From: an uncultured bacterium
GTDB lineage: Bacteria > CG03 > SLGR01 > JAGXOG01
Length of the DNA stretch: 64,000 bases
Direction of reading: 5' to 3'
Assembly (NCBI GenBank): GCA_964476445.1
Contig: CAYZAK010000001.1
Location: forward strand, 8,351-72,350
The notes under the pieces were generated by a model. That model was not told where the DNA came from. It saw nothing but the letters and a program-made list of their open reading frames with translations, and ran no database searches. Shown here piece after piece: positions 5,814-41,370 of this stretch; within the stretch, counting starts at the first letter, position 1, and the number at the start of each line of letters is the position of its first letter. Both the position numbers and the translations under genes were made by a program.

Positions 5814-6278
5814 TTATTTGATTTTTCGATATAAATCGGTCATTTCCAGGGCTGCCCGTGCTGCCTCGGATCCTTTGTTGCCCCCCTTTCCTCCCGAGCG
5901 CTCAATAGCCTGATCAATATTATCGCAAGTTAATATACCAAAACTAACCGGACGGGATCCTCTATGTCCCTCTTCGGCTACCGTCCTGGCAACCTGGGAA
6001 GCCACATATTCAAAATGAGGGGTATCACCTCTTATAACCGCTCCCAAACATATTATTAAATCATATACAGAACTGCCAGAGAGTTTGTTTACCGCACCGG
6101 CAATCTCCCACGCTCCAGGCACTTCTATGACAGTTATATGCGAATCTTCCACCCCGTTTCTTATAAGTTCCTCAGTAGCTCCTTCCAGTAGATTTTTGAC
6201 CACCTGCTCATTACAACGGGATACAACTACAGCTGCTCTTTTTCCTTCACCATATATTTTACCTTTTATCTTTTCCAT
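5814..6278 (-). CDS. ribH: 6,7-dimethyl-8-ribityllumazine synthase
   Basis: AAVVVSRCNEQVVKNLLEGA...VIEVPGAWEIAGAV...ICLGAVIRGDTPHFEYVA lumazine synthase motifs. Confidence 0.9.
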   Translation of the reverse strand: MEKIKGKIYGEGKRAAVVVSRCNEQVVKNLLEGATEELIRNGVEDSHITVIEVPGAWEIAGAVNKLSGSSVYDLIICLGAVIRGDTPHFEYVASQVARTVAEEGHRGSRPVSFGILTCDNIDQAIERSGGKGGNKGSEAARAALEMTDLYRKIK

Positions 6279-6323
6279 GCTGTTATCTCCATTATATATA
6301 ATACTCTTTACCTTTACTCACCG

Positions 6324-7535
6324 TTATTCCAGATAATGTCCCAATTTTTCTTTTTTAGTATCAAGATATTTTTTATTTTCCCGGGTCGGCTTAGGTGTAA
6401 TAGAAATTCGATCAGTAATTTCCAACCCATAACCGGCAAGACCCACTATTTTTTTAGGATTATTGGTAAGCAATTTTATGCTTGATAAACCCAGATCAGA
6501 TAAAATTTGGGCCCCTGTGCCATAATCTCTTAAATCAGCTTTAAACCCTAAAGCATGATTGGCCTCAACAGTATCAAGACCCTCATCCTGCAAGGAATAA
6601 GCCTTAATTTTTTCATCCAATCCAATACCCCGCCCTTCCTGCCTCATATAAAGAAATACTCCCTGTCCTTCTTCGTCTAAAAGCCGTAATGCCATTTCCA
6701 GTTGCTGACCGCAATCACATCTTTTTGATCCTAACACCTCTCCGGTAAGACACTGTGAATGTACTCTGACCAGAACTTTTTCTTTATCTTTTACCTTACC
6801 CTTTACCAGAGCCAGATGGGATTTACTTTTATCCAAATTGGACTTGTATACATAAAGCTTAAATTTTCCATATTTTGTGGGAAGTACAGTTTTGCTTGCA
6901 CATTCCACAAAATTTTCATTTCTGTACCTGTATTTAATTAAATCCGCTATGGTAATTAAGTTAAGGTTATGTTTACTAACAAATTTTTTAAGTTCTTTCA
7001 TCCGGGCCATAGAACCGTCGTCATTCATTATCTCGCATATTACTCCGCCGGGAAAAAGTCCCGCCATTCTAACTAGATCTACGGAGGCTTCAGTATGTCC
7101 GGCCCTTTTAAGAACTCCTCCTTCTTGATATTTTATGGGAAAAACATGGCCTGGAGTTGTAATGCTTTTTTGACCTTTTTTCGGATCTGCCAGGACATTT
7201 ATGGTCTTAGCCCTATCTTCAGCTGAAATACCGGTAGTAACTCCATTGCGGGCGTCACAGGAAACAGTAAATTCCGCTTCACGGGAATCATGCCGTCTTT
7301 CCATGGGATTAAGATTTAGTTTATTTAACCTCTCTTCTTTTAGGGTAACACATATAAGGCCTCTCCCCTTTTTAGCCATAAAATTTATAGCTTCCGGGGT
7401 GGCCTGACCAGCGGCCATCACCAGATCCCCCTCATTTTCACGCTCTTCATCATCAACAATTACAACCATCTTACCGTTTTTTATATCCTCAACGGCACGC
7501 TCAACTCTTTTTATACAATTTTCTTTTTCATTCAT
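6324..7535 (-). CDS. ribBA: Bifunctional 3,4-dihydroxy-2-butanone-4-phosphate synthase / GTP cyclohydrolase II
   Basis: N-terminal DHBP synthase motif [19 protein letters not shown]; C-terminal GTP cyclohydrolase II with Zn-binding [15 protein letters not shown]. Confidence 0.92.
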
Positions 7536-8092
7536 AATTTTCTACTAGCCGCTGTCAACATATCCGGTTCAATGTTCAGCGGCTCGCCTTTCTTTATTTT
7601 CTTCAAATTAGTTCTCTTTAAAGTTTCCGGTATTATCCCTACGGTAAAATAGTTTTTACTTTTTTCATTAACTGTAAGAGAAACACCTTCCACTGCAACC
7701 GATCCTTTTACCATTAAATTTTTTAAAAAAATTTTACTGGCCCTAATTTTTAACACATCAGTGTTATTTCTTTTTGCTCTGGAAAGGAGTTTGCCAGTTT
7801 CCCATACATGACCGTAAACAAAGTGCCCACCTACCCGGTCTGTAAGCTTAAGGGCTCTCTCAAGATTGACAACATCATTTTTTCTAAGTCCACTAAGTGA
7901 ACTTACTCTCAAAGTTTCCCGACCTAAATCCATACTAATTATTTTATTTTCTTTTTTTGTGACCGTTAAACAAACCCCGTTTACCATAACACTGTCGCCG
8001 TTAGTTATATCCTCTAACCTACTTTCTACAATTAAAGTATTTTGTCCTATCCGTTTAATTACCCCTCTATCCTCAACAATTCCGGTAAACAT
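7532..8092 (-). CDS. ribE: Riboflavin synthase alpha chain (B. subtilis nomenclature ribE)
   Basis: [15 protein letters not shown]... two lumazine-binding repeats; overlaps ribBA start by 4 nt. Confidence 0.85.
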
Positions 8093-8097
8093 TTTGG

Positions 8098-9180
8098 TTA
8101 GATAAGATCTCCCTGCATAACAAGATCTTCTCCCAAGTTAAATCTTTTGACGTTTTTAATTTTGGGGGCCTTTCTCATTTTTTCAACTCCTACCCCATCA
8201 ACCGCTGTAGGCGCATCTTTTCCTCCTATTATTTTTGAACCATATATGAAAATAATTCTATCAACTTCTTTAGCTTCAATAAAATTAGCAGCCGTTGTCC
8301 CCCCCCCCTCTATTAAACATCTTTTAACCTTTTTTTTGCCCAGGAGTTTTAAAATTTTTTCCGGCGGCAACTTTTCATTAACTACAGAAGTTATCTGTAC
8401 TACCTGACACCCTTTTTTTTCAAGTCTCCTTTTTTTCTTGCTACTTGATTCTGAAGACGTCACTATTAAAGTCCCTTTTTTAATAACTTTTAAATTTTCT
8501 TTAATATTTAATTTTCCGTCTATTATCACTCTTAAAGGATTCTTGGCCCGGGGTTTATTTAATCTATAAGTAAGGGATGGATTATCCGTATTTACAGTGC
8601 CACGTCCGGCTATTATTGCTCCTATATTCCCTCTCATCTTCATTGTAAAATTACGAGAACTTTTAGAAGATACCCACCGGCTTTCCCCGGTACGGGTTGC
8701 TATTTTACCGTCCCATGAGACAGCGGATTTTAAAATTACGTAAGGCTTCTTGTATTTCACTAATTTTACATAGTCTTTTATTAAGTTAAAAGTTTCCTGT
8801 TTTAAAACCCCAACTTTAACCCGGACATTATTTTTCCTTAAATAGTTTATACCGTCTACTTCCGGACGGGGATCTTTCATTCCAATAACAACCCTGCTTA
8901 TCCCCTGTTCTACAATCTGTTTTGCACATGGTCCGGTTTTACCTTTATGGGTACAAGGTTCTAAAGTTACAAACATGGTCGAATTTTTTAAATTTCGGGG
9001 AGAATTTTTCATAGCGTTAATTTCTGCATGATGGCCGCCGAATTTTTTATGGTATCCCCTCCCTATTATACATCCGTCTTTTACAATTACACATCCTACC
9101 CGGGGATTTGAAAAGGTCAAGTTAGTACCTCTGCGACCCAATTCTAACGCTTTTTTCATAAAATAAATATCTGATATCAT
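8098..9180 (-). CDS. ribD: Riboflavin biosynthesis deaminase/reductase RibD
   Basis: N-terminal CMP/dCMP-type deaminase HAEINA...EPCTHKGKTGPC; C-terminal RibD reductase domain; N-terminus DIYFMKKALELGRRG aligns with E. coli RibD QDEYYMARALKLAQRG. Confidence 0.9.
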   Translation of the reverse strand: MISDIYFMKKALELGRRGTNLTFSNPRVGCVIVKDGCIIGRGYHKKFGGHHAEINAMKNSPRNLKNSTMFVTLEPCTHKGKTGPCAKQIVEQGISRVVIGMKDPRPEVDGINYLRKNNVRVKVGVLKQETFNLIKDYVKLVKYKKPYVILKSAVSWDGKIATRTGESRWVSSKSSRNFTMKMRGNIGAIIAGRGTVNTDNPSLTYRLNKPRAKNPLRVIIDGKLNIKENLKVIKKGTLIVTSSESSSKKKRRLEKKGCQVVQITSVVNEKLPPEKILKLLGKKKVKRCLIEGGGTTAANFIEAKEVDRIIFIYGSKIIGGKDAPTAVDGVGVEKMRKAPKIKNVKRFNLGEDLVMQGDLI

Positions 9181-9204
9181 TGTTATTGACTTTAAAAAAT
9201 AAAT

Positions 9205-9395
9205 TTAAAAAACCGGAGCTAAAAACTCCGGGCTTTACTTATTACATTATTATTCTTCTCCCTTCCGGCCTCTTACCGTCGGTATCCGAATTACACAGAT
9301 TCAATCTGATGATTTCAGAGTCGCGGACTGATGGCACTTTACCAAACACCGCCGGGCGGGATTTACACCCGTCCCGAAGTTATTCTAAATTTAAT
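9205..9395 (-). promoter_or_regulatory. FMN riboswitch (RFN element) with intrinsic terminator expression platform, in the ribD leader
   Basis: Minus-strand sequence cttcgggacgggtgtaaatcccgcccggcggtgtttggtaaagtgcc...agtccgcgac...attcggataccgacggtaagaggccggaagggagaagaat matches the RFN consensus CTTCGGGGCAGGGTGAAATTCCCGACCGGCGGTAGTAAAGCAC...AGCCCGCGA...GGATTCAGTTTAAGCTGAAGCCGACAGTGAAAGTCTGGATGGGAGAAG. It is followed by hairpin ccggag-tttttag-ctccgg plus a U-run at 9209-9237, just before the ribD ATG at 9180. Confidence 0.85.
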
Positions 9396-9425
9396 GTTTT
9401 AATATTAAATTTTAGGATTTTTATA

Positions 9426-9454
9426 ATTTTATATTCCTTACTATTTTTTGTCAA
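9426..9454 (-). promoter_or_regulatory. Candidate sigma70-like promoter for the riboswitch-rib operon transcript
   Basis: Minus-strand TTGACA (9454-9449), 17-nt spacer, TAAAAT (9431-9426), about 35 nt upstream of the aptamer 5' end; the AT-rich background makes chance matches likely. Confidence 0.25.
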
Positions 9455-9469
9455 ATTTTAATTGTATAA

Positions 9470-10321
9470 TTACCGGGAATTGGGCAACCGGTTTTTGATG
9501 AATTCATCTATGCATTTCAGCCAGTTAATAAGTTCACGGCGACTGGTCTGATTATGCCTTCCTCTCATAGAATGAAATTTTTTAGGTTCCGGGGCTATTT
9601 CAAATAGTTTTTCACCCATAAAATAAGGGGTTACCTGATCTTCACGGCTGTGTATTATAAGTTTGGGTTGAATTACTTTTTTTATTCTCCTGGATGCGTT
9701 ATAGTCAACCGTAACAAAAAGTTCTAAAAGAAAACGGGGAACAAATGGAAGCACTAACTCTCCCATCTCCAATGCGCTGGTAAAAGCGCTTTCTGAAATT
9801 AAAATTCCCTCATCAATATCAGCGGCTAAGTCTATGGCTACATTACCCCCTAAAGATTTACCGTATATTACTATATTTTCCGAACAAAAATTCAGAGTTT
9901 CCTTAACATGCCTGTAAGCTGCCCGGGCGTCTTTATAAAGTCCTTTTTCAGTGGGCTTACCCTGACTTTTTCCGTAACCCCGGTAATCTATTATAAAAAC
10001 ATTAAGTTTCAGACTGTTTAGTAATTTTAATCTTTCCAGACGGTGACTAATATTTCCGGCATTGCCATGAAAATAAATGAGTATTTTTTCACTGTTTTTA
10101 TAGGGGATATACCAGCCATGAAGTTTTGTACCATCTTCAGCTTTTAAATTTGTATCTCTATACTCTAATTCCACTCCGGCGGGGGTTCTATGTACATTAT
10201 TATCGGGAAAATATATTCCCCGAGCCTGGTAAAACCTTATAAAACCCCATAACAGGAAAAGTAAAACTAATACCACCCCTCCCGCTTTAATGATAAATTT
10301 AATTATCAGATGACCATTCAC
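9470..10321 (-). CDS. Membrane-anchored alpha/beta hydrolase
   Basis: N-terminal TM helix; HGNAGN oxyanion-hole region; nucleophile elbow GKSLGG (GxSxG); catalytic Asp/His region IIHSREDQVTP ... RGRHN. Confidence 0.7.
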   Translation of the reverse strand: MNGHLIIKFIIKAGGVVLVLLFLLWGFIRFYQARGIYFPDNNVHRTPAGVELEYRDTNLKAEDGTKLHGWYIPYKNSEKILIYFHGNAGNISHRLERLKLLNSLKLNVFIIDYRGYGKSQGKPTEKGLYKDARAAYRHVKETLNFCSENIVIYGKSLGGNVAIDLAADIDEGILISESAFTSALEMGELVLPFVPRFLLELFVTVDYNASRRIKKVIQPKLIIHSREDQVTPYFMGEKLFEIAPEPKKFHSMRGRHNQTSRRELINWLKCIDEFIKNRLPNSR

Positions 10322-10350
10322 TTTTTTTTAGAGCACATCAACATTAGAAT

Positions 10351-11118
10351 CTATTTTGAATTTTCAATAATAGATTTGGCAGCGTGTTTCCCGGAAAGAA
10401 GCATACCTCCGAATATGGGACCCATACGTGGCGCACCGTACACCGCATTAGCAGCCATTCCGCACACATAGAGACCGGGATACACCTCGTTAGTATTTTT
10501 CACCACTACAGACTCGGCCTTTTCCGCCCACATTGACCTTTCACCCATAATTTTACCGGTAGCAGTATTCAAATCTCCTGTCTTCTCTTCCACCACTTTA
10601 CATATTTCTAAAGGATGCCCGGTGGCTTCTATAACAAATTTTGATTTTACCGCTACCGGATCCACATGCAGTCCCGTCTGTTCAATTGGAGTCCAGTTTA
10701 TAACCACCCCGCAAACTTTATCTTTTCTTATTAAAACATCTTCTACCGAAATACAGTTATTTAGATGACAGCCGGCATCGGCCGCTCCGGCAATTAATTT
10801 GGAAACTGCCTCTATAGATGAAGAAACCAGCTGCCCCTCTTCCCTTTTATAGCTGATATCAAAATCATTCATTATCATTTCTGCTTCAGGCTGAACAACT
10901 ATTTTAGGAAACATCATACCTCCCCCCCACATTCCGCCGCCAAGAGAAAGCTTTCTTTCAAACAGGACTACTTCTTTTCCCTCCTCCGCCAGATACTTTG
11001 CGGCCACCAGCCCCGAAGGACCTCCCCCACCAATTATTACATCAACATCCAGATTATTAAGTAATTCCTCAACCGCGTTATTAATAATCAATTTAGTTAC
11101 TTTAGTTTCATCTATCAT
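10351..11118 (-). CDS. thi4: Thiazole synthase of the Thi4 family (sulfide-dependent type)
   Basis: Dinucleotide-binding motif DVIIGGGGPSGLVAAKYLAEEGKEVVLFERKLSLGGGMWGGGMMFPKIVV, characteristic of Thi4/THI1 ribose-thiazole synthases. Confidence 0.8.
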   Translation of the reverse strand: MIDETKVTKLIINNAVEELLNNLDVDVIIGGGGPSGLVAAKYLAEEGKEVVLFERKLSLGGGMWGGGMMFPKIVVQPEAEMIMNDFDISYKREEGQLVSSSIEAVSKLIAGAADAGCHLNNCISVEDVLIRKDKVCGVVINWTPIEQTGLHVDPVAVKSKFVIEATGHPLEICKVVEEKTGDLNTATGKIMGERSMWAEKAESVVVKNTNEVYPGLYVCGMAANAVYGAPRMGPIFGGMLLSGKHAAKSIIENSK

Positions 11119-11130
11119 TTTTTTTCCTTT

Positions 11131-11538
11131 CTAAAAATGCAATTCCATCGCTTTAGGCGGACAGGGTTCAATACATAATTCACAGGCTATGCAACTGTCC
11201 GATTTAAAAATTACTTCCCTTGTATGTACATCTATTTCTAAGGCGTCGGTGGGACAAATAACCACACAGGCACCGCAATGAGTACATCTATCTTCATCTC
11301 TTTTTATATCTCTGGCCAGAGGCTGTATAGAAACCCCTGCCTTTTTAAGATATTTCATACCTTCCTCATAATCTTTGGCTTCACCTCTTAAAGCCATTAC
11401 CATCAGTCCTTCCTGATCGGGTAATATTTTAGCTTTAAGTATATTAAAACTTAAATTAAAATCCTTAATAAGTCTGTAAACTATAGCTTCATTTACCAAG
11501 CTCCTTGGGAAATGAAGAACTATTTTTTTTGTTTTCAT
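11131..11538 (-). CDS. NIL-domain / 4Fe-4S ferredoxin protein (MA1822-like homocysteine biosynthesis partner)
   Basis: N-terminal NIL-like ligand-binding region followed by two CxxCxxCxxxCP motifs (CTHCGACVVICP, CIACELCIEPCP); adjacent to a COG1900 gene as in methanogen homocysteine biosynthesis clusters. Confidence 0.7.
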   Translation of the reverse strand: MKTKKIVLHFPRSLVNEAIVYRLIKDFNLSFNILKAKILPDQEGLMVMALRGEAKDYEEGMKYLKKAGVSIQPLARDIKRDEDRCTHCGACVVICPTDALEIDVHTREVIFKSDSCIACELCIEPCPPKAMELHF

Positions 11539-11588
11539 ACTTTTCCTCCAACCGTTTTTATGGTCTCTTAATAGTAACTTTTAATATT

Positions 11589-12752
11589 TTATTTTGGCCC
11601 GGGGCCGGGAAGCATTTTCTGGGGTTCCCCGATTAAAAATTCTCCGGCTTTAATATTTTCTTTTAACTTATCGGCGATCTGAACAGCCCGGTAGTAAGAA
11701 GAGAGGGAAGCGGTGGGTACTTTTTTTCCTTTAACTTTTATAGTCCCCGATTTCAACTCCTCATAATTCACCCGACCCAAAATTTTACCTCGGGCTTCAG
11801 GGTAGTCATCGGAATAGTCTACTATGGTACACTCAATATCTTTATCCGAAGCCCCGCAACTGGCCGCTATATCTTCGTCTAAAACGGGAATGGGAATTCC
11901 TAGTCCAACCATTAAACTTACCCCGTAGCCTACCATAGAAACTCCTTTTATCCATTTAGAAGACATCTGTTTTAAATCACCGGTCACCGATAAGGTTCCG
12001 GCCGGCTTTTTGGGAATACCCAGGCTGTTTCGGGGAACATCCGTAACATGCTGAGTCCCGTTCCAGGTTACATAACCGGTAGTACCTCCCAAAAATATTT
12101 TAGTGCCTATACCAATAGTTCTAAACTTAGGATCATTTAATAACGGGGACAACTGACCGGCCGAACAGTAGTTTGCATTACCCAGATCAGGTTTTAATAA
12201 GCCCATGTAGGTATATATAGTTTCATCTGATGTATTGACCGCGCAGTTATAATTCTGATACGCATTTCGAGGGTTATGCATAATAGCTTCGTTAATATCA
12301 TCTATGGTTATTTCGGATTTAACTTCCTTTCTAGGATAGCAATCTGTACCGTATGCTGTTCCCCGAAGAATTACTTTCTTCCCCTTTATTAAATCTTCTA
12401 TTACATGCCCACCTCCATACAAGAACCTGCCCGGATGAACACGGTTTAAAGAATCGTTTTCGCTCATCTGAGTAGCTCCAAGATAGACATCTACCGCCGC
12501 CAGGCCTGCATAAGCTTGTACATCGTTGATATAAATTTCCTGTATTTTTATTTTAGGTTTAGGCTGATCAAAATTTAAAAATACTCCGGAAGAACACATA
12601 GGTCCAAATGTGCCAGTAGTTACTACATCCACCTTCCGGGAAGCCTCTTTGGTGCCCTTATCCTTAACTATATCAACCATCTCTTCGGCAGTGACAACCA
12701 AGGCTTCTCCCTGTTTGATTTTAGCGTTAATCTCTTTTATGGTTTTACTCAT
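11589..12752 (-). CDS. COG1900/DUF39 homocysteine biosynthesis protein (MA1821-like)
   Basis: 387 aa, no TM helices; overall architecture and conserved co-occurrence with the NIL-ferredoxin gene match the DUF39 family. Family assignment from memory of sequence patterns; not profile-verified. Confidence 0.6.
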   Translation of the reverse strand: MSKTIKEINAKIKQGEALVVTAEEMVDIVKDKGTKEASRKVDVVTTGTFGPMCSSGVFLNFDQPKPKIKIQEIYINDVQAYAGLAAVDVYLGATQMSENDSLNRVHPGRFLYGGGHVIEDLIKGKKVILRGTAYGTDCYPRKEVKSEITIDDINEAIMHNPRNAYQNYNCAVNTSDETIYTYMGLLKPDLGNANYCSAGQLSPLLNDPKFRTIGIGTKIFLGGTTGYVTWNGTQHVTDVPRNSLGIPKKPAGTLSVTGDLKQMSSKWIKGVSMVGYGVSLMVGLGIPIPVLDEDIAASCGASDKDIECTIVDYSDDYPEARGKILGRVNYEELKSGTIKVKGKKVPTASLSSYYRAVQIADKLKENIKAGEFLIGEPQKMLPGPGPK

Positions 12753-12823
12753 TGTTTCCTCTTAAATATCTTTATTTATTCCTTATTCTATAAAATTATA
12801 TTATTTTAGCTTTTTGTTCTATT

Positions 12824-13561
12824 TTATTTCATCTGAGTTAAATTGCAAATTTCAATTTGACCGACAGCTCCCATTTTATCATCCATAATAATAAGACATC
12901 CATCCAGACCCGGTATCTTTTTTGATAAATTTAAGCCTTTTTTAATATCTTTTTTATCAATTACACTATTACATATTCTGGTTGCAGCAGCATCCGCCAG
13001 CGCGGTATTTCCGGATATACATACTACAGCATCAGCATTGCCGCCGGATTTAGAATGGCCGACCGTACCGGAAGAGGTGCATAGCCCATAACCCTCTTTT
13101 CGGGGGAACAGTTTTATCCCGACTTTCATACTTAAAGGAGAATCTCCTGCATAAACCGCACTGATCCTTTCCTGTTTAAGTTTAATAAAAACATCGCCCC
13201 CGTTTTCAACAATTACTTCTTTTGATAATTTCAAAAGCTGAACGCCAACATAATCAGACACCGCGCCAGCTACCGCCGCCATAGGACCAACTGAACATTT
13301 TTTAGATTTTCGTACCATCTCCTTTACAATACCGGGCATATCGGAAGAAATTAAAACAGGATCCATCGAAAGTTTAAAATACGGTTTTTTTTTAATGTAA
13401 TTTTCAATCTTTTTACGGGCCTGCAACAAAAATTTACAGCTCTCTTTTTTATATATACCATTCGTAGAAATAAATAAATCGGAGGTTTTTACCTTCACTC
13501 TGTAAGAATCCAGATTATTTTTTTTTATTTTATTCCTGTATTTCCTAAGTAGTTCAACCAT
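12824..13561 (-). CDS. UPF0280 / ApbE-superfamily protein (COG2122-like)
   Basis: Motif SVGPMAAVAGAVSDYVG and overall size match UPF0280. COG2122 is the third member reported with COG1900 and NIL-Fer in anaerobic sulfide assimilation. Confidence 0.5.
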   Translation of the reverse strand: MVELLRKYRNKIKKNNLDSYRVKVKTSDLFISTNGIYKKESCKFLLQARKKIENYIKKKPYFKLSMDPVLISSDMPGIVKEMVRKSKKCSVGPMAAVAGAVSDYVGVQLLKLSKEVIVENGGDVFIKLKQERISAVYAGDSPLSMKVGIKLFPRKEGYGLCTSSGTVGHSKSGGNADAVVCISGNTALADAAATRICNSVIDKKDIKKGLNLSKKIPGLDGCLIIMDDKMGAVGQIEICNLTQMK

Positions 13562-13591
13562 TTTAGCTGATTTGTTTTTTGTTTTCTCTTT

Positions 13592-14467
13592 TTAATAACC
13601 CCATATTTTTTTTTGGGCAAGCTTTTCCCGATTCTCGTCTTCCTGTTTTTTAAATGCTTTTACAATTCCCAAACCAACCTGATTGCATACCGTCTTTAAA
13701 ATTATCTCATCCTCCAGTGAAAACCCGGAAGAATTCTTATCTTTTCCCAATAGTATATACCCTAAATTTTTATTATCTGAAACCATAGATGCCCCCATAA
13801 CCCAGCAATTTTTTTCCAGGACTTTAAATTTATTACCAGAATGTTTTTTAATTAAATGTTCTGCGTTTTTTGAAGTTAAGATACTGTTTTCTGTTTTATA
13901 AACTGTCTGAAACATATCGCTGAAAGGATTTTTTATGCATACCATGCCGCCGTTAACACCTTCTATTCCACCGGACATTATTTTTAATATTCTTTTTGAA
14001 AGTTCATTTATTGAAAGATCTCTTCCCACTATTTTTCCGGTTTCATATACCATTATAAAATACTTAGAAGTTCGCCGTAATCTTATAGATAATTCTTTTA
14101 TACTGTTAAATAAAAAATATAATCCTTCCTCATGGTGTTTAGTAAGAAATTTTTTAAATTCAGAATTATTCAGTTTATATAAAATGGAATCTGTCCTGGC
14201 TATAGCAGTAGCACTACGTTTTTTACTTTCAAAAAGTGCCATTTCCCCGAACATATCTCCTTCTGTAAATAATCCCAGCAACTTGTTCTGTTTTTTAATG
14301 GCTATTTTTCCTTTTACTATTATGTAAATGGCCTGGCCCGGGTCCCCTTCATTAAAGATAGTTGCCCCGGAAGTATATTTTTCTAAAACAATAAGATTTG
14401 CCAAGTCCTGTAAAGAATTTTCAGAAAATACTCTAAAAGATTGTATGTTCTTTAATTTTTCGATCAT
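13592..14467 (-). CDS. Cyclic-nucleotide-binding domain protein with C-terminal GAF-like domain
   Basis: cNMP-binding signature FNEGDPGQAIYIIVKGKIAIK...GDMFGEMALFESKKRSATAIA; C-terminal half is GAF-like; start overlaps pilT stop by 4 nt. Confidence 0.6.
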   Translation of the reverse strand: MIEKLKNIQSFRVFSENSLQDLANLIVLEKYTSGATIFNEGDPGQAIYIIVKGKIAIKKQNKLLGLFTEGDMFGEMALFESKKRSATAIARTDSILYKLNNSEFKKFLTKHHEEGLYFLFNSIKELSIRLRRTSKYFIMVYETGKIVGRDLSINELSKRILKIMSGGIEGVNGGMVCIKNPFSDMFQTVYKTENSILTSKNAEHLIKKHSGNKFKVLEKNCWVMGASMVSDNKNLGYILLGKDKNSSGFSLEDEIILKTVCNQVGLGIVKAFKKQEDENREKLAQKKIWGY

Positions 14468-15534
14468 CGTTGAGCACCGCTTTCTCTTAGTTGCTTCTGT
14501 ATCATATCAGGATTATTTGATTTTGCTACAGCGGTTCCTGAAGTTATTTTTCCGGTTTTTACCAGTCGAATTAAATCTTTATCCAGTGTCTGGCTTCCCT
14601 CCTGCTGGCCGGTCTCTAGGGCACTGTAAATCTGATGAGTTTTGCCCTCTCTTATAAGATTGGAAATACCGGAAGTAACCACCATTATTTCTCTGGCTGC
14701 TACTCTACCCTTTTCATCTGCGGTAATCATAAGTTGCTGACATACTACCGCCTTTAGTACCCCTGCAAGCTGAGTACGAACCTGCTGCTGCTGGTAAGGC
14801 GGGAACACATCTATGATTCTGTCTACAGTCTGGGCCGCATCCGTTGTATGCAGGGTAGCCAGTACCAGATGCCCGGTTTCGGCCAGAGTAAGAGCGGAAG
14901 AAATAGTTTCTAAATCTCTCATTTCTCCAACCAGGCAAACATCGGGATCCTGTCTCATAGCCCGTTTCAGAGCTTCTTTAAAAGAATTGGAATGGCTTCC
15001 TATTTCTCGCTGAGTAATTACACATTTCTTTCTGGGGTACACGTATTCAATAGGATCTTCAATAGTAATTATATGATCTCTTCGGTTTTTATTAATATCG
15101 TTTATTAAGCTGGCCAGCGTTGTAGATTTCCCGCTCCCCGTAGGCCCGGTCACCAAAACCATACCCCGGGGTACCTCTGATAATTCCAGTAATCTTTCCC
15201 CTATCCCAATCTCCTGGGGAAGAGGAATTTCTGATGGTATTACTCTTAAGACCGCTCCTATGCCGTCTTTTTGTTCCAGAACATTTACCCGGAAGCGACC
15301 AATACCCTGCACAGATATGGATGTATCCAGCTCCATATTTTTTTTAAATTTATTAATTAAACTTTCATTTAAAAATCCGAAAATTAAATCCTGTACGTCA
15401 GCCGAAGTCAATACGTCAGTATTTAAACTTTTCATTTCCCCATTGATCCTCAAAAACGGCGGTCGGCCGGGAATTATATGTATATCGGATGCGTCAAATT
15501 TTACAGCGGCCATTAAAATCTCTTTTATACCCAT
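14464..15534 (-). CDS. pilT: Type IV pilus retraction ATPase PilT
   Basis: Walker A VLVTGPTGSGKSTTLASLI; Asp box and His box of PilT/PilU secretion ATPases; whole-length similarity to PilT, with no N-terminal extension of PilB type. Confidence 0.85.
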   Translation of the reverse strand: MGIKEILMAAVKFDASDIHIIPGRPPFLRINGEMKSLNTDVLTSADVQDLIFGFLNESLINKFKKNMELDTSISVQGIGRFRVNVLEQKDGIGAVLRVIPSEIPLPQEIGIGERLLELSEVPRGMVLVTGPTGSGKSTTLASLINDINKNRRDHIITIEDPIEYVYPRKKCVITQREIGSHSNSFKEALKRAMRQDPDVCLVGEMRDLETISSALTLAETGHLVLATLHTTDAAQTVDRIIDVFPPYQQQQVRTQLAGVLKAVVCQQLMITADEKGRVAAREIMVVTSGISNLIREGKTHQIYSALETGQQEGSQTLDKDLIRLVKTGKITSGTAVAKSNNPDMIQKQLRESGAQR

Positions 15535-16095
15535 TTTTTTTCTCCTATTTTACTTGTTATCTATACTCTACACCATCTTAACTATATTAAGATTTAAACC
15601 CGGTAATATGAAATATTTTATTAATGTAACCCGGAATTGGCCTATTTTAAAATATGATTTAAAATTACACCGGTTTTTAAAAATTAAATTTAATTTTGTT
15701 ATATGAAATTTAGATGTCTTTTTTAAATAGTTATCTAATTTAAAAGGGAAGGAAACTGAAAATATTTTTTGAACTCTAAATGTACAATTTAGAAGTTGTA
15801 CGGAATTTTTATTTGATTTAAAAATAAACGTAAATATGATCGAAAACAAACTGTCAACTGGCTTTAAAAGATATCTTATTTTCTTCAGGGGGCAGTATAA
15901 TAATATATTCATTTTATTTTTCCTTTAATAACCGGCTTTGTGAAAGATAAAGAGTTTTTATTCTTAAACTCCCGATGGGCGCCCAGCATATATCTGGGAC
16001 ACTCTGGGCTAGCAAGCTTAGTCAACCTTTTGGAAGAAAAAATATTCCTCCACAGTGCCAGTTCTGGTACTCATCCCATAAATATTTTATAAAAA

Positions 16096-16170
16096 TGGAG
16101 CGGGCGATGGGATTCGAACCCACGACCCTCACGTTGGCAACGTGATGTTCTTCCACTGAACTACGCCCGC
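16096..16170 (-). tRNA. tRNA-Gly (anticodon GCC), CCA encoded
   Basis: Reverse complement GCGGGCGTAGTTCAGTGGAAGAACATCACGTTGCCAACGTGAGGGTCGTGGGTTCGAATCCCATCGCCCGCTCCA. It has a perfect 7-bp acceptor stem, TTCGAAT T-loop and anticodon loop TTGCCAA. Confidence 0.92.
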
Positions 16171-16186
16171 TTTTATATCTATAGCT

Positions 16187-17374
16187 TTATTTTTTTTTAA
16201 GAACTTCTATGCCGGGGAGCGAACTTCCTTCTAAAAAAGTAAGACTGGCTCCACCGCCGGTTGAAATATGAGAATAATCGCTATCGGAAAATCCAAGTTT
16301 TTTAACAGCTGAAACCGTATCTCCACCTCCTAAAATAGTGGTGGCCCCTGATTTTGTTGCTTTCTTTATTCCTTTAAGAACAGATAAAGTTCCCCGGGTA
16401 AACTGTTTTTTTTCAAAAACTCCCATGGGGCCGTTAAAGACTACTGTCCGGGCTGAAAATAATTCCTTCTGATATATTTTAGCAGTTTTTCTGCCTATAT
16501 CCAACCCCATCATATCCCGGGGAATATTTTCATTATATATCTCCTCAATTTTTCTGGGATTTTCTAGGCTGTCTGCCACAATATGGTCTACAGGTAATAA
16601 AATTTCAGCTTTTGAACTATCTGCTTCTTTTAATATATCTTTAGCTGTTTTAATATTTTTTTCATCTATCAGCGATTTACCTACCGACACATCTTTTGCT
16701 TTTAATAATGTATAGGCCATACCGCCGCCTATTAAAATACTGTTGGCCTTATCCAGCATATTGCGTATCACACCTATTTTAGTAGTTATCTTTGCTCCCC
16801 CCAGACAGACAATAAACGGGTTTTCAGGGGTTAATCCCTGGGAAAGAAATTTTACCTCTTTCTGTATAAGTTCACCGGCAAAAGATTCAAGATGTTTGGG
16901 AACTCCTACCATGGAAGCGTGTTCCCGGTGAGCGGTACCAAAAGCATCCTGGACAAAAACATCCGCCAATTCAGCTAAACTCAGGGCAAACTCGGGATTA
17001 TTTTCCTCTTCACCAGAATTGAATCTTAAATTTTCTAAAAGATATACCTGACCTGCAAAAAGTTCAGCCGCTGTCTGTTTTGCTTTTTTTCCGGTAGTAT
17101 CACCAGTAAATTTTACTTTTGTATCAAGCAATTCATTCAACCGCTGAGCCACCGGTCTAAGGGAAAGCTCATTATTTATTTCTCCTTTTGGACGACCAAG
17201 ATGACTCATTAATATTACAGCGGCTCCTTCTTTCAATAATTTTTTAATGGTAGGCAGCGCTTTTTGGATCCGGGTATCATCAGCAATTTGACCTTGTTCA
17301 AGGGGAACATTAAAATCACACCTAACCAGGACCCTCTTGCCATTAACATTTATATCTTTTAGCGTTTTTAACAT
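16187..17374 (-). CDS. pgk: Phosphoglycerate kinase
   Basis: MLKTLKDINVNGKRVLVRCDFNVPLEQGQIADDTRIQKALPTIKKLL...HLGRPKG aligns with the Pgk N-terminus; start moved to ATG at 17374 (the ORF-track extension upstream has no homology). Confidence 0.92.
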   Translation of the reverse strand: MLKTLKDINVNGKRVLVRCDFNVPLEQGQIADDTRIQKALPTIKKLLKEGAAVILMSHLGRPKGEINNELSLRPVAQRLNELLDTKVKFTGDTTGKKAKQTAAELFAGQVYLLENLRFNSGEEENNPEFALSLAELADVFVQDAFGTAHREHASMVGVPKHLESFAGELIQKEVKFLSQGLTPENPFIVCLGGAKITTKIGVIRNMLDKANSILIGGGMAYTLLKAKDVSVGKSLIDEKNIKTAKDILKEADSSKAEILLPVDHIVADSLENPRKIEEIYNENIPRDMMGLDIGRKTAKIYQKELFSARTVVFNGPMGVFEKKQFTRGTLSVLKGIKKATKSGATTILGGGDTVSAVKKLGFSDSDYSHISTGGGASLTFLEGSSLPGIEVLKKK

Positions 17375-19891: not shown

Positions 19892-21976
19892 CTATATTTT
19901 TTCTAATTTTTCTGCGGGCACCCATATTCTTCTATTTTCATACTCTAAAATTACTTCGGCCCAGTTATCCGTAAACTGTAGAATTAATACTTTATTGCCT
20001 TCAGACAACCTACCCGCTACTGAAGTTCTGTCATCAAAATCACTGTATATTGAAGTCTCCTCTATTATAACGGCCGGGCCGGGCGGGGGGTCTCTTAAAG
20101 AATATATATACATATAGCCGGCTAAACATGAGAATATAATAAATCCTCCGATTCCCACCCAGATATACTTTTTATCTTTTAAAATATAAAATCCCAGAAA
20201 GCTCAAACTAAAAATCCAGCCCCAAAATACAGATAACAATACCAATTTTTCAAAAGAAAAATATTCTTTAAATCCACTGTATATTGATAAAGTTCCCCCC
20301 CTGTTTCCGGTAAATTTTTTAACCAAATTTATATTTTGTACCGTTTTTTTATTAAACGGATTAATTTCATAAGCCCGTTCCCAGTAAAGCCGGGCTTTAC
20401 CCGGTTTATTAAGATGCCAGTAACTATTTCCAAGATTGTACAAAATTCCTTCATAAATTTTATACTTTAATATAGTATTATATTTTTGAACGGCCAGCTC
20501 AAATTCATTTTCTTTATAAAATTCATTAGCGGTTTTAAAAATTTTTTGTTCACTTAACTGATAGTCTATATCTTCTCTTACATTTCCCCAACCGACAACC
20601 GGGGAAGTCCCTACCAGTACAATCAAGATCTTTATACTTTTCTTTATTATTTTTTTAATTTTATTTAAATCCCGGGCTGCGGATCTTTTATTTCCCCTAT
20701 AATCAGGAGAATATATAATTTTACGTGACCGGGCAACAATACTTTCACCTTCCGGAGGAAGTTTATCCGGTTCGCCTGAAATATTTTCAATAATTTTATA
20801 AACTTCCATTATTTGATTTTTATTTAATTTATCTTTAGCCTCTTTAAATTTTTTATTTATTTCTCTTTTTTTCCTTAGCTTAGGATACGCTGGTTTAAAA
20901 ATATATTTATTTGAAAATTTGTATAAAAGGGCCAGAATCCAGATATAAATAGGAATACCGGCGAGAACTCTGAAAATTTTTCTATCATAAATTGGCTCCC
21001 GGAAAGGCCGACCCATATTTAGGGTGATATCTGATATACCGCCGTTTACCATTGGGTATTTATCCTCGCTAAAACGATTAATTTTAGATTCCGCGACTTC
21101 ACGGGTAGCTGCTTCAACCTTAAATGATACGGGCTGGCTTCTCTTTGTAATATATTTTTTAGTATAGGGGTTAAAATAATTAAATATTACCGGGGGAACT
21201 CTAAGAACGCCTGAAGAAACCGGGACTAAAGTTGTTTTGAAAGTTCTTTTGCTATAAACGTTATTTGCTTTATTTTTAATATCAAAATCCGAGTCTGTTC
21301 CCATAACTTTAAAATCTGGTAAATGGGGTAAATCCGGACTTTTTATAAGCCGGAGATCTCCACGACCTTTTATTTTTTTAATTAAAGTAACCGCCTCTCC
21401 TTTTGAAATTGGTCCCTCTTTATCGGTCTGAACTTTAAAAGTAAAATCCCCCACCCCGCCGGAAAAATCAGCGGGTCTGTTTTTTGCGGGTAACGGTTTT
21501 ACTTCAAGAAGCAGAGCACCGGTTTCTAATTTTAATTCCTCATCTGTTGTAAATTGAAATACCCCGGACACCCCGTCTACCCCTTCTACAATTAACTTTA
21601 TCTGGGCTGGCTCTATTTTAAATCTACCAGATCTCATTGGAAAAAAACCAAATTTTCTTTCGGTTAAAATATAAGTCTGTCCCCCGGGGCCGGTGGTCTT
21701 TTCTTTTTTTCTATCCAGATCCACTCTCATAAAATCAGAATAATCAGGAAGCCTAAGGCGAGGGGTATCCTCAACTGGCCGGCCCCTAAAAAACCTAAAA
21801 GTATAGGTTAATTGTTCGCCGGCGTAAATACTTTTTTTATCCAATTCCTGTTCAACTATAAAATCTTCTATTTCTATTTCTTTAGGGTAGGTTTTTATGC
21901 TGTATATCCGTCTTTGACTGTGTAAAAACTCCAGCGGATACAATATTAAAATAAAAAAAAATATGATCTTTACCAT
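19892..21976 (-). CDS. batD: BatD-like protein (aerotolerance operon) with embedded TPR repeats and TM helices
   Basis: Signal peptide, large N-terminal extracytoplasmic domain, TM helices (YIWILALLYKF, FWGWIFSLSFLGFYIL, IWVGIGGFIIFSCLAGYMYIY) and TPR-like repeats; terminal position in a Bat-type operon. Confidence 0.55.
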   Translation of the reverse strand: MVKIIFFFILILYPLEFLHSQRRIYSIKTYPKEIEIEDFIVEQELDKKSIYAGEQLTYTFRFFRGRPVEDTPRLRLPDYSDFMRVDLDRKKEKTTGPGGQTYILTERKFGFFPMRSGRFKIEPAQIKLIVEGVDGVSGVFQFTTDEELKLETGALLLEVKPLPAKNRPADFSGGVGDFTFKVQTDKEGPISKGEAVTLIKKIKGRGDLRLIKSPDLPHLPDFKVMGTDSDFDIKNKANNVYSKRTFKTTLVPVSSGVLRVPPVIFNYFNPYTKKYITKRSQPVSFKVEAATREVAESKINRFSEDKYPMVNGGISDITLNMGRPFREPIYDRKIFRVLAGIPIYIWILALLYKFSNKYIFKPAYPKLRKKREINKKFKEAKDKLNKNQIMEVYKIIENISGEPDKLPPEGESIVARSRKIIYSPDYRGNKRSAARDLNKIKKIIKKSIKILIVLVGTSPVVGWGNVREDIDYQLSEQKIFKTANEFYKENEFELAVQKYNTILKYKIYEGILYNLGNSYWHLNKPGKARLYWERAYEINPFNKKTVQNINLVKKFTGNRGGTLSIYSGFKEYFSFEKLVLLSVFWGWIFSLSFLGFYILKDKKYIWVGIGGFIIFSCLAGYMYIYSLRDPPPGPAVIIEETSIYSDFDDRTSVAGRLSEGNKVLILQFTDNWAEVILEYENRRIWVPAEKLEKI

Positions 21977-26236: not shown

Positions 26237-26282
26237 AAATTTTCAGATTATTTAAATCCGGTAAAAGTACGGTGTTCCGGCG

Positions 26283-32878: not shown

Positions 32879-32882
32879 AGAA

Positions 32883-33104
32883 TTATTCTTCTTCTTTTAA
32901 ATTGGAAAGTTCTTTCCAGGCTTCTGCGTTGATATTTTTACGGTACTCTTTAACTTTTTCTACAATTTCTTCAATTTTTTCTTTAACCATTAACCGGTTT
33001 CCGCTGGTAAGAGAGATATGAGTATCCGGATGGGCGGTAATTGTCTCTATTAATTCGGCATTTAAAACTATCCGGGTACCGTTCATTTTTGTCACAGTTA
33101 TCAT
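32883..33104 (-). CDS. flbD: FlbD-family flagellar protein
   Basis: MITVTKMNGTRIVLNAELIETI...TLTSGNRLMVKEKIEEIVEKV matches the short FlbD family encoded immediately upstream of motA in spirochaete and Firmicute flbD-motA-motB operons. Confidence 0.75.
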   Translation of the reverse strand: MITVTKMNGTRIVLNAELIETITAHPDTHISLTSGNRLMVKEKIEEIVEKVKEYRKNINAEAWKELSNLKEEE

Positions 33105-33106
33105 AA

Positions 33107-41090: not shown

Positions 41091-41112
41091 ATCATTTGTA
41101 CAAAAAAAATAC

Positions 41113-41149: not shown

Positions 41150-41370
41150 AATTCCAATACATCAACCTGTATTGACTTCCAATTCAACCTACTGGCAATT
41201 CAGCCTTCCTTAACTTTACCAGGAACTGTAATTTTGCGTTACGACGGTTACCCACCGGTTGCCTTTATCAGTAGTTTTTCAATATTCTATTTTCTTTTCC
41301 TATTAAATTAATAACACGAAATCCGGTTTTTTTCAAGGAATTCATTAATGTACCGGTAACTTTCCGTTAT

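What the first reader, a model, noticed from the sequence alone, without database searches (positions are those of the whole stretch)
9470..13561. Sulfide-utilising biosynthetic operon: COG2122 + COG1900/DUF39 + NIL-ferredoxin (homocysteine from sulfide) directly coupled to Thi4 thiazole synthase
The COG1900 (DUF39) / NIL-Fer pair, with COG2122, has been implicated in sulfide-dependent homocysteine biosynthesis in methanogens and other anaerobes. Here the trio is followed after 12 nt by a Thi4-family thiazole synthase. In anaerobes Thi4 uses free sulfide rather than the suicidal cysteine mechanism. An alpha/beta hydrolase comes next. Co-transcription of two sulfide-incorporating pathways (methionine and thiamine branches) hints at a shared sulfur-relay or regulatory logic. 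It also marks the organism as a sulfide-tolerant anaerobe. No TPP or SAM riboswitch is evident upstream, since the intergenic spaces are under 75 nt.
Basis: partly seen in the sequence, partly recalled or inferred. Interest (0 to 1): 0.5.

Follow-up and report, generated by a model that had tools for sequence, protein, structure and literature searches.

The report
Homocysteine and thiazole sulfide-assimilation gene cluster
An uncultured Elusimicrobiota bacterium carries the three known genes for making homocysteine directly from sulfide next to a sulfide-using thiamine-thiazole synthase; every part is a known family, and the pairing recurs in several phyla but has no demonstrated shared mechanism.

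Summary
On the minus strand lie COG2122/UPF0280 (13561..12824), DUF39/HcyBio (12752..11589, Pfam E=2e-156), NIL+2x[4Fe-4S] ferredoxin (11538..11131), Thi4 (11118..10351, TIGR00292 at twice its cutoff) and an alpha/beta hydrolase (10321..9470). The gaps are 71, 50, 12 and 29 nt, with no terminator-like site. Thi4 has His151 where suicide enzymes have Cys, as in the catalytic M. jannaschii enzyme. No TPP or SAM riboswitch was found.

The four-gene block is kept in seven relatives whose context was read (Thi4 69-87% identical), while the downstream genes differ. The hydrolase is therefore not part of it.

In samples of 80 loci each, Thi4 lay beside DUF39 in 6/80 DUF39 loci, and DUF39 in 4/80 Thi4 loci. 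Ten control genes scored 0-3/80. These cases come from several phyla and show different gene orders, often with Rrf2, CysK, CysE and NifS.

Best reading: a co-expressed sulfide-assimilation module of independent enzymes. A direct sulfur hand-off to Thi4 is possible but untested. A 2026 paper already lists HcyBio among neighbours of Cys-type Thi4 genes.

I rate it a new member of a known kind, of modest interest. The inference that the organism is a sulfide-tolerant anaerobe over-reaches.

The parts
12824..13561 (-). COG2122 / UPF0280 (ApbE-superfamily) protein, 245 aa. It is the accessory factor of the sulfide-to-homocysteine pathway.
   Evidence: NCBIfam PRK04334 models match at E=7e-73, below the equivalog cutoff. 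Pfam PF27030 AbpE_bact. Homologues are named UPF0280. PDB 2o34 matches at E=9e-25.
11589..12752 (-). DUF39/COG1900a (HcyBio) protein, 387 aa. It is the predicted L-aspartate-semialdehyde sulfurtransferase catalytic subunit. It has no CBS domains and no ferredoxin insertion.
   Evidence: PF01837 matches at E=2e-156 over profile positions 1-349 of 349. The methanogenesis-marker-16 model scores only 152 bits against a cutoff of 364. It is 58-64% identical to DUF39 from about 80 species of many phyla. C53 and C138 are invariant in 16 sequences.
11131..11538 (-). NIL domain + 2x[4Fe-4S] ferredoxin, 135 aa. It is the predicted electron-supplying subunit of the sulfurtransferase.
   Evidence: PF09383 NIL matches at E=7e-14. 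Fer4 families also match. The motifs CTHCGACVVICP and CIACELCIEPCP are present.
10351..11118 (-). Thi4-family ADP-thiazole synthase, 255 aa, non-Cys type (His151).
   Evidence: TIGR00292 scores 315.7 bits against a cutoff of 148.3. PDB 4y4n (M. jannaschii) matches at E=2e-74. His151 aligns to the Cys of A. thaliana THI1 (1rp0) and to the His of the methanococcal enzymes. His151, Asp153 and His168 are invariant in 15 homologues.
9470..10321 (-). Alpha/beta hydrolase with a hydrophobic N-terminus, 283 aa. It is a downstream neighbour, not a conserved member of the module.
   Evidence: Hydrolase_4 matches at E=1.5e-13. It is present after thi4 only in the window and in L003, and is replaced by unrelated genes in L004, L006, L008, L171 and L172.
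13592..15534 (-). Upstream neighbours that are syntenic in the clade: a PilT-like T2SSE ATPase (15534..14464) and a cNMP-binding protein (14467..13592). The transcript may start upstream of these.
   Evidence: Searches give the family matches. The same pair lies upstream of COG2122 in L003, L004, L006, L008, L171, L172 and L090. An M23 peptidase is usually inserted between them and COG2122.
9249..9384 (-). FMN riboswitch that opens the next unit (ribD-ribE-ribBA-ribH). It marks the 3' limit of the cluster.
   Evidence: Rfam RF00050 scores 77.7 bits against a gathering score of 66.2. A promoter-like TTGACA-17-TAAAAT lies at 9454-9426.

Best explanation
This is a sulfide-assimilation gene block of an Elusimicrobiota bacterium. 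Two independent biosynthetic steps that both consume sulfide are placed together and are probably transcribed together.

Step 1 is inferred from homologues. COG2122, DUF39 and NIL-ferredoxin convert L-aspartate semialdehyde plus sulfide to homocysteine. DUF39 (essential Cys, here C53) carries out the sulfur transfer. The two [4Fe-4S] clusters of the NIL protein supply electrons. COG2122 aids sulfide use.

Step 2 is also inferred from homologues. Thi4, with His151 in place of the sacrificial Cys, makes ADP-thiazole catalytically from NAD, glycine and sulfide, using a bound metal.

The genes are linked because both steps depend on the same substrate and on the same reduced, metal-replete conditions, so co-expression is useful. 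No physical sulfur hand-off between the two systems is required.

Gene identities, the active-site residue, gene order and the recurrence of the order are shown here. Enzyme activities, co-transcription and the reason for the linkage are inferred.
For: - Family assignments are strong.
- DUF39, NIL/ferredoxin and COG2122 are each required for homocysteine synthesis in D. vulgaris, and homoserine is not an intermediate (PMC5764234, read). MA1821/MA1822 form the L-aspartate semialdehyde sulfurtransferase, with Cys54 essential (PMC12068725). The window protein has invariant C53 and C138.
- Thi4 has His151 at the suicide-Cys position and matches the methanococcal Thi4 structures in the PDB (4y4n, 4y4m, 6hk1) at E=1e-70 to 1e-75.
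- The NIL-Fer to thi4 gap is 12 nt, and no terminator-like site lies in the block. The gap is 1-92 nt in seven relatives.
- The order COG2122-DUF39-(DUF4139)-NILFer-Thi4 is kept in L003, L004, L006, L008, L171 and L172, although the gene after thi4 differs in nearly every one.
- Thi4 lies next to DUF39 in 6/80 DUF39 loci from GTDB species. DUF39 lies next to Thi4 in 4/80 Thi4 metagenome loci. Ten control genes scored 0/80, except Gap at 3/80. Naive binomial P is about 3e-6 and 9e-5.
- The linked Thi4s fall in at least 7 separate places of a Thi4 NJ tree, with different gene orders.
- In other phyla the same neighbourhood also holds Rrf2, CysK, CysE and NifS, for example Rrf2-CysK-Thi4-CysE-DUF39-NILFer-COG2122-NifS in L040. 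These gene assignments rest on generic Pfam folds (PALP, Hexapep, Aminotran_5) and sequence motifs. They suggest a sulfur-assimilation theme rather than a thiamine or methionine theme.
- No TPP or SAM riboswitch occurs in the window or in 10 linked loci.
Against: - No transcript data exist. All credible genes in the 64-kb window share one strand with short gaps, so adjacency here is weak evidence of an operon.
- Within the clade, the unrelated upstream genes (pilT, cNMP-binding, M23 peptidase) are as conserved as the block. Part of the conservation may therefore be plain inherited synteny.
- Linkage is a minority arrangement, about 5-8% of sampled loci. It is absent from an archaeal relative at 68% identity (L009) and from an Endomicrobiales relative, where thi4 sits in an aromatic amino-acid operon (L010).
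- The enrichment statistics are not corrected for phylogeny, and many metagenome contigs are short.
- The window has no regulator such as the Rrf2 seen in other phyla.
- The rest of the thiamine and methionine pathways could not be inspected.
Confidence: 0.55

Rival explanations
1. There is a direct sulfur relay. COG2122 (and/or the DUF39 cysteine persulfide) captures sulfide and hands it to Thi4 as well as to the homocysteine enzyme. In vivo, the 'sulfide-dependent' Thi4 would then use protein-bound sulfur rather than free HS-.
For: - In a Desantisbacteria-like lineage, thi4 is followed after 7-8 nt by COG2122, with no DUF39 or NIL-Fer within 5-6 kb. This is seen in L173 and L094, which are 87% identical, and the Thi4 was read on 24 contigs.
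- COG2122 is described as needed for efficient sulfide assimilation and as possibly forming persulfides on more than one client (PMC5764234; PMC9431491).
- Oliveira-Filho 2026 makes the analogous relay proposal for Cys-type Thi4s.
- Thi4/DUF39 gaps of 4-21 nt occur in L017, L025 and L041.
Against: - Methanococcal His-type Thi4s work in vitro with free sulfide and Fe(II) (literature summarised).
- No fusion proteins appear among the top 120 Thi4, DUF39 or COG2122 homologues.
- COG2122 lies next to Thi4 in only 2/80 Thi4 loci, and it stands alone in L174 and L175.
- Most Thi4 genes have no such neighbour.
Confidence: 0.17
2. The linkage is incidental. thi4 happened to insert or remain beside the homocysteine genes in a compact, single-strand genome region, and the adjacency carries no functional or regulatory meaning.
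For: - The whole window is co-directional with short gaps.
- Unrelated upstream genes are equally syntenic in the clade.
- In Endomicrobiales, thi4 sits in an unrelated aromatic amino-acid operon. thi4 therefore seems to be dropped into assorted biosynthetic operons.
- More than 90% of sampled Thi4 and DUF39 loci are unlinked.
Against: - Adjacency recurs in Planctomycetia, Sumerlaeota, Chloroflexota, Omnitrophota, Elusimicrobiota and unclassified lineages, with different gene orders and with both His- and Cys-type Thi4.
- Ten control genes are essentially never found in the same flanks.
- The flank downstream of thi4 has been reshuffled repeatedly, while thi4 stayed attached to NIL-Fer.
Confidence: 0.22
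3. The Thi4 homologue is not a thiazole synthase here. It has been recruited as a nucleotide-binding accessory of the homocysteine pathway, or to another sulfur-insertion reaction.
For: - No other thiamine gene lies in the window.
- Thi4 homologues have been annotated as other enzymes, for example 'ribose 1,5-bisphosphate isomerase'.
Against: - It scores at twice the cutoff of an equivalog model.
- It aligns end to end with methanococcal Thi4 structures.
- HVDP and ATGH are conserved, and the protein aligns over its full length.
- The homocysteine pathway works without Thi4 in Desulfovibrio and Methanosarcina.
Confidence: 0.03

Closest known systems
DUF39 (COG1900a) / NIL-ferredoxin / COG2122 homocysteine pathway: L-aspartate semialdehyde sulfurtransferase. 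Examples are MA1821-MA1822 plus MA1715 in Methanosarcina acetivorans, DvMF_1464/0262/0044 in Desulfovibrio vulgaris, and DET0921-DET0919 in Dehalococcoides.
   Same: All three protein families are present. The DUF39 domain is full length with the two conserved cysteines. The NIL protein has two 4Fe-4S motifs. DUF39 lies directly before NIL-Fer, as in many bacteria (34/80 sampled loci).
   Different: COG2122 lies upstream of DUF39, whereas in the Dehalococcoidia/Firmicutes-type loci it follows NIL-Fer. There are no CBS domains, unlike the archaeal enzymes. A thi4 gene is attached 12 nt after NIL-Fer. Function was not tested here.
Catalytic, sulfide-dependent Thi4 (EC 2.4.2.59), e.g. Methanocaldococcus jannaschii Thi4 (PDB 4y4n), Methanotorris igneus Thi4 (4y4m) and Thermovibrio ammonificans THI4 (7rk0).
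   Same: The proteins align over their full length (E=2e-74 to 4y4n). His sits at the position of the sacrificial Cys. The HVDP and ATGH motifs are conserved.
   Different: The source is a bacterial (Elusimicrobiota) host. The published genomic context of non-Cys THI4s is TRASH, cobalt/nickel and thiamine genes (PMC8454699). Here the neighbours are homocysteine-synthesis genes, and no TRASH or thiamine gene is nearby.
Clusters of Cys-type ('suicide') prokaryotic Thi4 genes with sulfur-relay and sulfur-using genes (Oliveira-Filho et al. 2026, PMC13325395).
   Same: Thi4 lies next to sulfur-metabolism genes. That paper's list of recurrent neighbours includes CysK, CysE, NifS and 'HcyBio, L-aspartate semialdehyde sulfurtransferase'. 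Two loci found here (L034, L075) are of that type, and L034 also has DUF6775.
   Different: The window's Thi4 is His-type, not Cys-type. There is no ThiS, ThiF or DUF6775 nearby. The rationale in that paper (rescuing a suicide enzyme) does not apply to an enzyme that is already catalytic.

Membership tests
DUF39/COG1900a L-aspartate semialdehyde sulfurtransferase system | Full-length PF01837 (HcyBio) domain, and not the MMP16/ComF subtype | tested here: met
   PF01837 matches at E=2e-156 over profile 1-349/349. TIGR03287 methan_mark_16 scores only 152.6 bits against a cutoff of 364, and there is no ferredoxin insertion.
DUF39/COG1900a L-aspartate semialdehyde sulfurtransferase system | Two conserved cysteines (Cys54 essential, Cys131; M. 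acetivorans numbering, PMC12068725) | tested here: met
   C53 (GTFGPMCSSG) and C138 (YGTDCYPR) are invariant in a 16-sequence alignment. Correspondence to Cys54 and Cys131 is inferred from position. MA1821 itself was not aligned.
DUF39/COG1900a L-aspartate semialdehyde sulfurtransferase system | Partner protein with a NIL domain plus a 2x[4Fe-4S] ferredoxin | tested here: met
   PF09383 and Fer4 families match, and two CxxCxxCxxxCP motifs are present. The gene starts 50 nt after DUF39.
DUF39/COG1900a L-aspartate semialdehyde sulfurtransferase system | COG2122/UPF0280 accessory protein | tested here: met
   PRK04334 models match at E=7e-73 (below the equivalog cutoffs), PF27030 matches, and 2o34 matches at E=9e-25.
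DUF39/COG1900a L-aspartate semialdehyde sulfurtransferase system | Required for homocysteine/methionine synthesis, with the genome lacking the homoserine-activation routes | not testable with these tools
   Only 64 kb of the genome is available and it holds no met genes. No genetics are possible.
Catalytic (sulfide-dependent) Thi4, EC 2.4.2.59 | Thi4 family membership at equivalog level | tested here: met
   TIGR00292 scores 315.7 bits against a cutoff of 148.3, and PF01946 matches at E=2e-75.
Catalytic (sulfide-dependent) Thi4, EC 2.4.2.59 | Non-Cys residue (typically His) at the sacrificial-Cys position | tested here: met
   His151 in GLHVDP aligns to the Cys of 1rp0 (SCMDP) and to the His of 4y4n, 4y4m and 6hk1. 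It is invariant in 15 homologues.
Catalytic (sulfide-dependent) Thi4, EC 2.4.2.59 | Multiple-turnover ADP-thiazole formation from NAD, glycine and sulfide, within a complete thiamine pathway (ThiC/D/E or N) | not testable with these tools
   No assay is possible, and no thi genes lie in the window.
Suicide Thi4, EC 2.4.2.60 | Active-site Cys that donates the sulfur | tested here: not met
   His151 occupies the site.
Riboswitch-controlled thiamine or methionine operon | TPP (THI-box) or SAM riboswitch in the leader | tested here: not met
   Rfam gathering scan of the whole window and an E<=1 scan of 9000-16300 found only FMN, tRNA and c-di-GMP-I. None was found in 10 related linked loci.
Thi4 / sulfur-relay clusters of Oliveira-Filho 2026 | Cys-type Thi4 with ThiS/ThiF and/or DUF6775 neighbours | tested here: not met
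   The Thi4 is His-type. Pfam scans of the window ORFs of at least 110 aa, other than the giant 48225-63992 ORF, found no ThiS, ThiF or DUF6775. The HcyBio neighbour named in that paper is present.

The most novel reading that the evidence does not exclude
COG2122/UPF0280 is a general sulfide-delivery (persulfide or metal-sulfide) chaperone whose clients include the 'sulfide-dependent' Thi4 as well as the DUF39 homocysteine enzyme. In vivo, catalytic Thi4s would then draw sulfur from a protein relay rather than from free HS-. This would explain the recurrent Thi4 linkage to COG2122/DUF39 clusters, and the bare thi4-COG2122 pair in Desantisbacteria-like genomes.
Probability: 0.15. Interest if true: 0.6.

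Novelty: new member of a known kind. Interest (0 to 1): 0.3.

Why it matters
If the linkage reflects function, it would place thiazole synthesis within a wider set of sulfide-consuming enzymes (CysK, DUF39, Thi4) that anaerobes co-regulate. It would also point to COG2122 as a candidate helper for catalytic Thi4s. That has some practical interest, because catalytic THI4s are being sought to replace the costly suicide enzyme of crops, and their in-vivo sulfur donor at low sulfide is unresolved (PMC8454699). As it stands, the finding is mainly a sound annotation. It shows that this Elusimicrobiota lineage probably makes homocysteine and thiazole directly from sulfide.

Tried and rejected
- Riboswitch control: TPP and SAM riboswitches were sought in the window (gathering scan, plus E<=1 on 9000-16300) and in 10 linked loci. 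None was found.
- The alpha/beta hydrolase as a member of the module: rejected, because it is not conserved beyond the closest relative.
- Suicide-type Thi4: rejected, because His151 occupies the site.
- MMP16/CoM-synthase identity of the DUF39 protein: rejected, because it scores below the cutoff and has no ferredoxin insertion.
- Other met or thi genes in the window: none was found in the 26 further ORFs scanned.
- Literature on the linkage: no paper in the library contains both COG1900 and Thi4, or both 'non-Cys THI4' and homocysteine. Only PMC13325395 names both thiazole synthase and the sulfurtransferase. Its supplements, and Rauch & Perona 2016, are not held.
- COG2122-centred context: two look-ups (Saganbacteria, WOR-1) showed stand-alone genes and gave no information.
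- Thi4 loci with at least 3 kb on both sides: 0/26 held DUF39. The positive cases all sit near contig ends, so the Thi4-side frequency is uncertain.
- The AT-rich gap of about 560 nt upstream of pilT: it was read and scanned, and nothing recognisable was found.

Full report
**Observation.** Five consecutive ORFs lie on the minus strand. They are a 245-aa protein (13561..12824), a 387-aa protein (12752..11589), a 135-aa protein (11538..11131), a 255-aa protein (11118..10351) and a 283-aa protein (10321..9470). The gaps between them are 71, 50, 12 and 29 nt.

Profile searches assign these proteins as follows.
- The first is COG2122/UPF0280. NCBIfam PRK04334 models match at E=7e-73, although below the equivalog cutoffs. 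The precomputed Pfam assignment is PF27030. Homologues are named 'UPF0280 family protein'. PDB 2o34 matches at E=9e-25.
- The second is DUF39/HcyBio. PF01837 matches at E=2e-156 over the whole profile.
- The third has a NIL domain plus two 4Fe-4S motifs.
- The fourth is Thi4. TIGR00292 'sulfide-dependent adenosine diphosphate thiazole synthase' scores 315.7 bits against a cutoff of 148.3.
- The fifth is an alpha/beta hydrolase of the Hydrolase_4 and Abhydrolase_1 families.

The consensus scan finds no terminator-like site on the minus strand inside the block. Rfam finds no TPP or SAM riboswitch in the window, or in 9000-16300 at E<=1. Immediately downstream, a promoter-like site and an FMN riboswitch (9384..9249) open the riboflavin operon. 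This marks the 3' limit of the block.

**Source.** The exact Thi4 protein is on record on an ENA metagenome contig and in an NCBI assembly. The nearest homologues of all three proteins searched are labelled Elusimicrobiota.

**The Thi4 active site.** In the HMMER alignments to solved structures, His151 of the window protein (GLHVDP) aligns with the sacrificial Cys of Arabidopsis THI1 (1rp0, SCMDP). It also aligns with the His of the methanococcal enzymes 4y4n, 4y4m and 6hk1, which match at E=1e-70 to 1e-75. His151, Asp153 and His168 are invariant among 15 homologues. This is therefore a non-Cys Thi4 of the kind shown in methanococci to be catalytic and to use sulfide (literature summarised in PMC8454699).

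**The homocysteine trio.** DUF39, NIL/ferredoxin and COG2122 are each required for homocysteine synthesis in Desulfovibrio vulgaris, and homoserine is not an intermediate (PMC5764234). In Methanosarcina the DUF39 and NIL-ferredoxin pair is the L-aspartate semialdehyde sulfurtransferase. Cys54 is essential there and Cys131 is dispensable (PMC12068725).

The window DUF39 is 58-64% identical to DUF39 proteins from 80 species of many phyla. It keeps invariant C53 and C138. It lacks the ferredoxin insertion of the MMP16/CoM-synthase subtype and scores far below that model's cutoff. I conclude by homology that these three genes encode the known sulfide-dependent homocysteine route. The activity itself is inferred.

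**Is the thi4 linkage more than chance? Within the clade.** Seven Elusimicrobiota relatives had their gene context read, with Thi4 69-87% identical to the window's. These are L003, L004, L006/L007, L008, L171 and L172.
- All keep the order COG2122, DUF39, NIL-Fer, Thi4.
- In L008, L171 and L172 a DUF4139 gene is inserted between DUF39 and NIL-Fer.
- The NIL-Fer to thi4 gap is 1-92 nt.
- The gene after thi4 differs: hydrolase, TonB, a small ORF followed by a sigma factor, a 700-aa protein, YfhO, or a 172-aa protein.

The hydrolase is thus not part of the module. Matching contig lengths in the three homologue tables point to further co-located cases, for example contigs of 3722, 4227, 3917 and 6496 bp.

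There is a caveat. The unrelated upstream genes (pilT-like ATPase, cNMP-binding protein, M23 peptidase) are just as syntenic. Some of this conservation is therefore simple inheritance.

**Is the thi4 linkage more than chance? Across phyla.** This is the stronger evidence. In a sample of 80 DUF39 loci from GTDB species representatives, tblastn found Thi4 within about 1.5 kb of DUF39 in six:
- Planctomycetia L017
- Sumerlaeota L025
- an unclassified bacterium L034
- Chloroflexia L040
- Dehalococcoidales L041
- Omnitrophota L075

In a sample of 80 His-type Thi4 loci from metagenomes, DUF39 lay in the flank of four (L133, L144, L167, L168). COG2122 alone lay in one more, L094.

Ten housekeeping genes from the window served as controls. 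They were found in 0 of 80 flanks, except Gap in 3 of 80. Naive binomial probabilities are about 3e-6 and 9e-5.

The gene orders differ:
- thi4-DUF39-NILFer
- DUF39-NILFer-thi4
- thi4-cysE-DUF39-NILFer-COG2122-nifS
- thi4-x-Rrf2-cysK-DUF39
- thi4-COG2122

The linked Thi4s fall in at least seven separate places in a neighbour-joining tree. Two of the linked Thi4s (L034, L075) are Cys-type and the rest are His-type.

The statistics are not corrected for phylogeny and many contigs are short. None of the 26 Thi4 loci with at least 3 kb on both sides held DUF39. The linkage is a recurrent minority arrangement of roughly 5-8%, not a rule. It is absent from an archaeal relative (L009). It is also absent from an Endomicrobiales relative (L010), where thi4 sits in an aromatic amino-acid operon.

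**What the neighbourhoods say about function.** In other phyla the linked loci also hold an Rrf2 regulator, a PLP-dependent CysK-like enzyme, a hexapeptide CysE-like transferase and a class-V NifS-like aminotransferase. The CysK, CysE and NifS names rest on generic fold-family hits and N-terminal sequence motifs. None of the ten linked loci scanned has a TPP or SAM riboswitch.

The common denominator is therefore sulfide assimilation, not methionine or thiamine as such.

My preferred explanation (confidence 0.55) is a co-expressed module of independent sulfide-consuming enzymes.

A direct sulfur relay to Thi4 remains possible (0.17). Its best support is the Desantisbacteria-like lineage, where thi4 is followed after 7-8 nt by COG2122 and no DUF39 or NIL-Fer lies nearby. 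Published suggestions that COG2122 aids sulfide assimilation for more than one client also fit.

Incidental linkage cannot be dismissed (0.22), because the whole 64-kb window is co-directional.

**Comparison with the literature.** The trio and its frequent adjacency to ferredoxin and COG2122 genes are published. For non-Cys THI4s the reported context is TRASH, cobalt/nickel and thiamine genes. For Cys-type prokaryotic Thi4s, a 2026 survey reports clustering with sulfur-relay and sulfur-using genes. It lists CysK, CysE, NifS and 'HcyBio, L-aspartate semialdehyde sulfurtransferase' among the recurrent neighbours. No other paper in the searchable library joins the two.

The window therefore extends a partly published association to a His-type Thi4 in Elusimicrobiota. 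It is a new member of a known kind, not a new system.

- Non-Cys THI4s also occur in aerobes from low-sulfide habitats and function in air. Thi4 type alone therefore does not mark a sulfide-tolerant anaerobe. The DUF39 route and the general gene content make an anaerobic lifestyle plausible, but this was not tested.
- The proposed refutation test, presence of canonical met and thi genes, could not be run. The window holds none, and the rest of the genome was out of reach.

**Verdict.** Interest is modest at 0.3.

Noticed in passing
L173:6001-7492 and L094:77-1416: In a Desantisbacteria-like lineage, a His-type thi4 is followed after 7-8 nt by a COG2122/UPF0280 gene. No DUF39 or NIL-ferredoxin gene lies within 5-6 kb. 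The two loci are 87% identical in Thi4 and 85% in COG2122, and the L173 Thi4 was read on 24 contigs. This hints that COG2122 may serve Thi4 independently of the homocysteine enzyme.
   Followed up: partly
L040:4974-11530; L025:188-4295; L075:5760-9221; L168:2215-6821: In Chloroflexota, Sumerlaeota, Omnitrophota and an unnamed lineage, DUF39 and thi4 sit in larger sulfur clusters. These also hold an Rrf2 regulator, CysK-like, CysE-like and NifS-like genes (assigned from generic Pfam folds).
   Followed up: partly
L010:5987-8729: In an Endomicrobiales MAG, thi4 lies between DAHP synthase and prephenate dehydrogenase, inside an aromatic amino-acid operon. There is no gap after the DAHP synthase gene.
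   Followed up: no
L008:5129-6538; L171:4176-5579; L172:4065-5486; L090:5622-7067: A 470-aa DUF4139 gene is inserted between DUF39 and NIL-ferredoxin in several Elusimicrobiota relatives. It is absent from the window. Its role is unknown.
   Followed up: no
window 5814-9384: An FMN riboswitch (77.7 bits) precedes ribD-ribE-ribBA-ribH, followed by nusB and ligA. A terminator-like hairpin at 9231-9213 is probably the riboswitch expression platform.
   Followed up: partly
window 31155-41273: A c-di-GMP-I riboswitch (41273..41191, 44.7 bits) precedes a TPR/UPF0164 protein. Next come a 650-aa FliG-domain+TPR protein, a 1439-aa protein with no Pfam match, and MotA/MotB homologues.
   Followed up: no
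window 42441-63992: There are two giant ORFs: 1915 aa with FG-GAP repeats, and 5255 aa that was not scanned. G+C rises from about 0.35 to 0.47-0.53 across them.
   Followed up: no
window 1-64000: Every ORF that has a family match or looks real lies on the minus strand. GC skew is negative throughout.
   Followed up: no
window 19892-27266: A MoxR AAA ATPase, DUF58, an unassigned ORF, two VWA proteins (one with a BatA N-terminus), a TPR protein and BatD form a Bat/aerotolerance-like operon.
   Followed up: no
window 15535-16095: An AT-rich stretch of about 560 nt lies between tRNA-Gly(GCC) and the pilT-like gene, with no credible gene and no Rfam match. The same junction is only about 80 nt in relative L006.
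   Followed up: partly
window 10351-11118: Outside Elusimicrobiota, the nearest Thi4 relatives are archaeal (Altiarchaeota and DPANN-type MAGs, 62-68% identity). The clade groups with them in the NJ tree, so an inter-domain transfer is possible.
   Followed up: no
L133:3004-5349: A 782-aa ORF with a CysK-like N-terminus lies directly upstream of DUF39-NILFer-thi4. It may be a fusion protein, but it was not scanned against Pfam.
   Followed up: no
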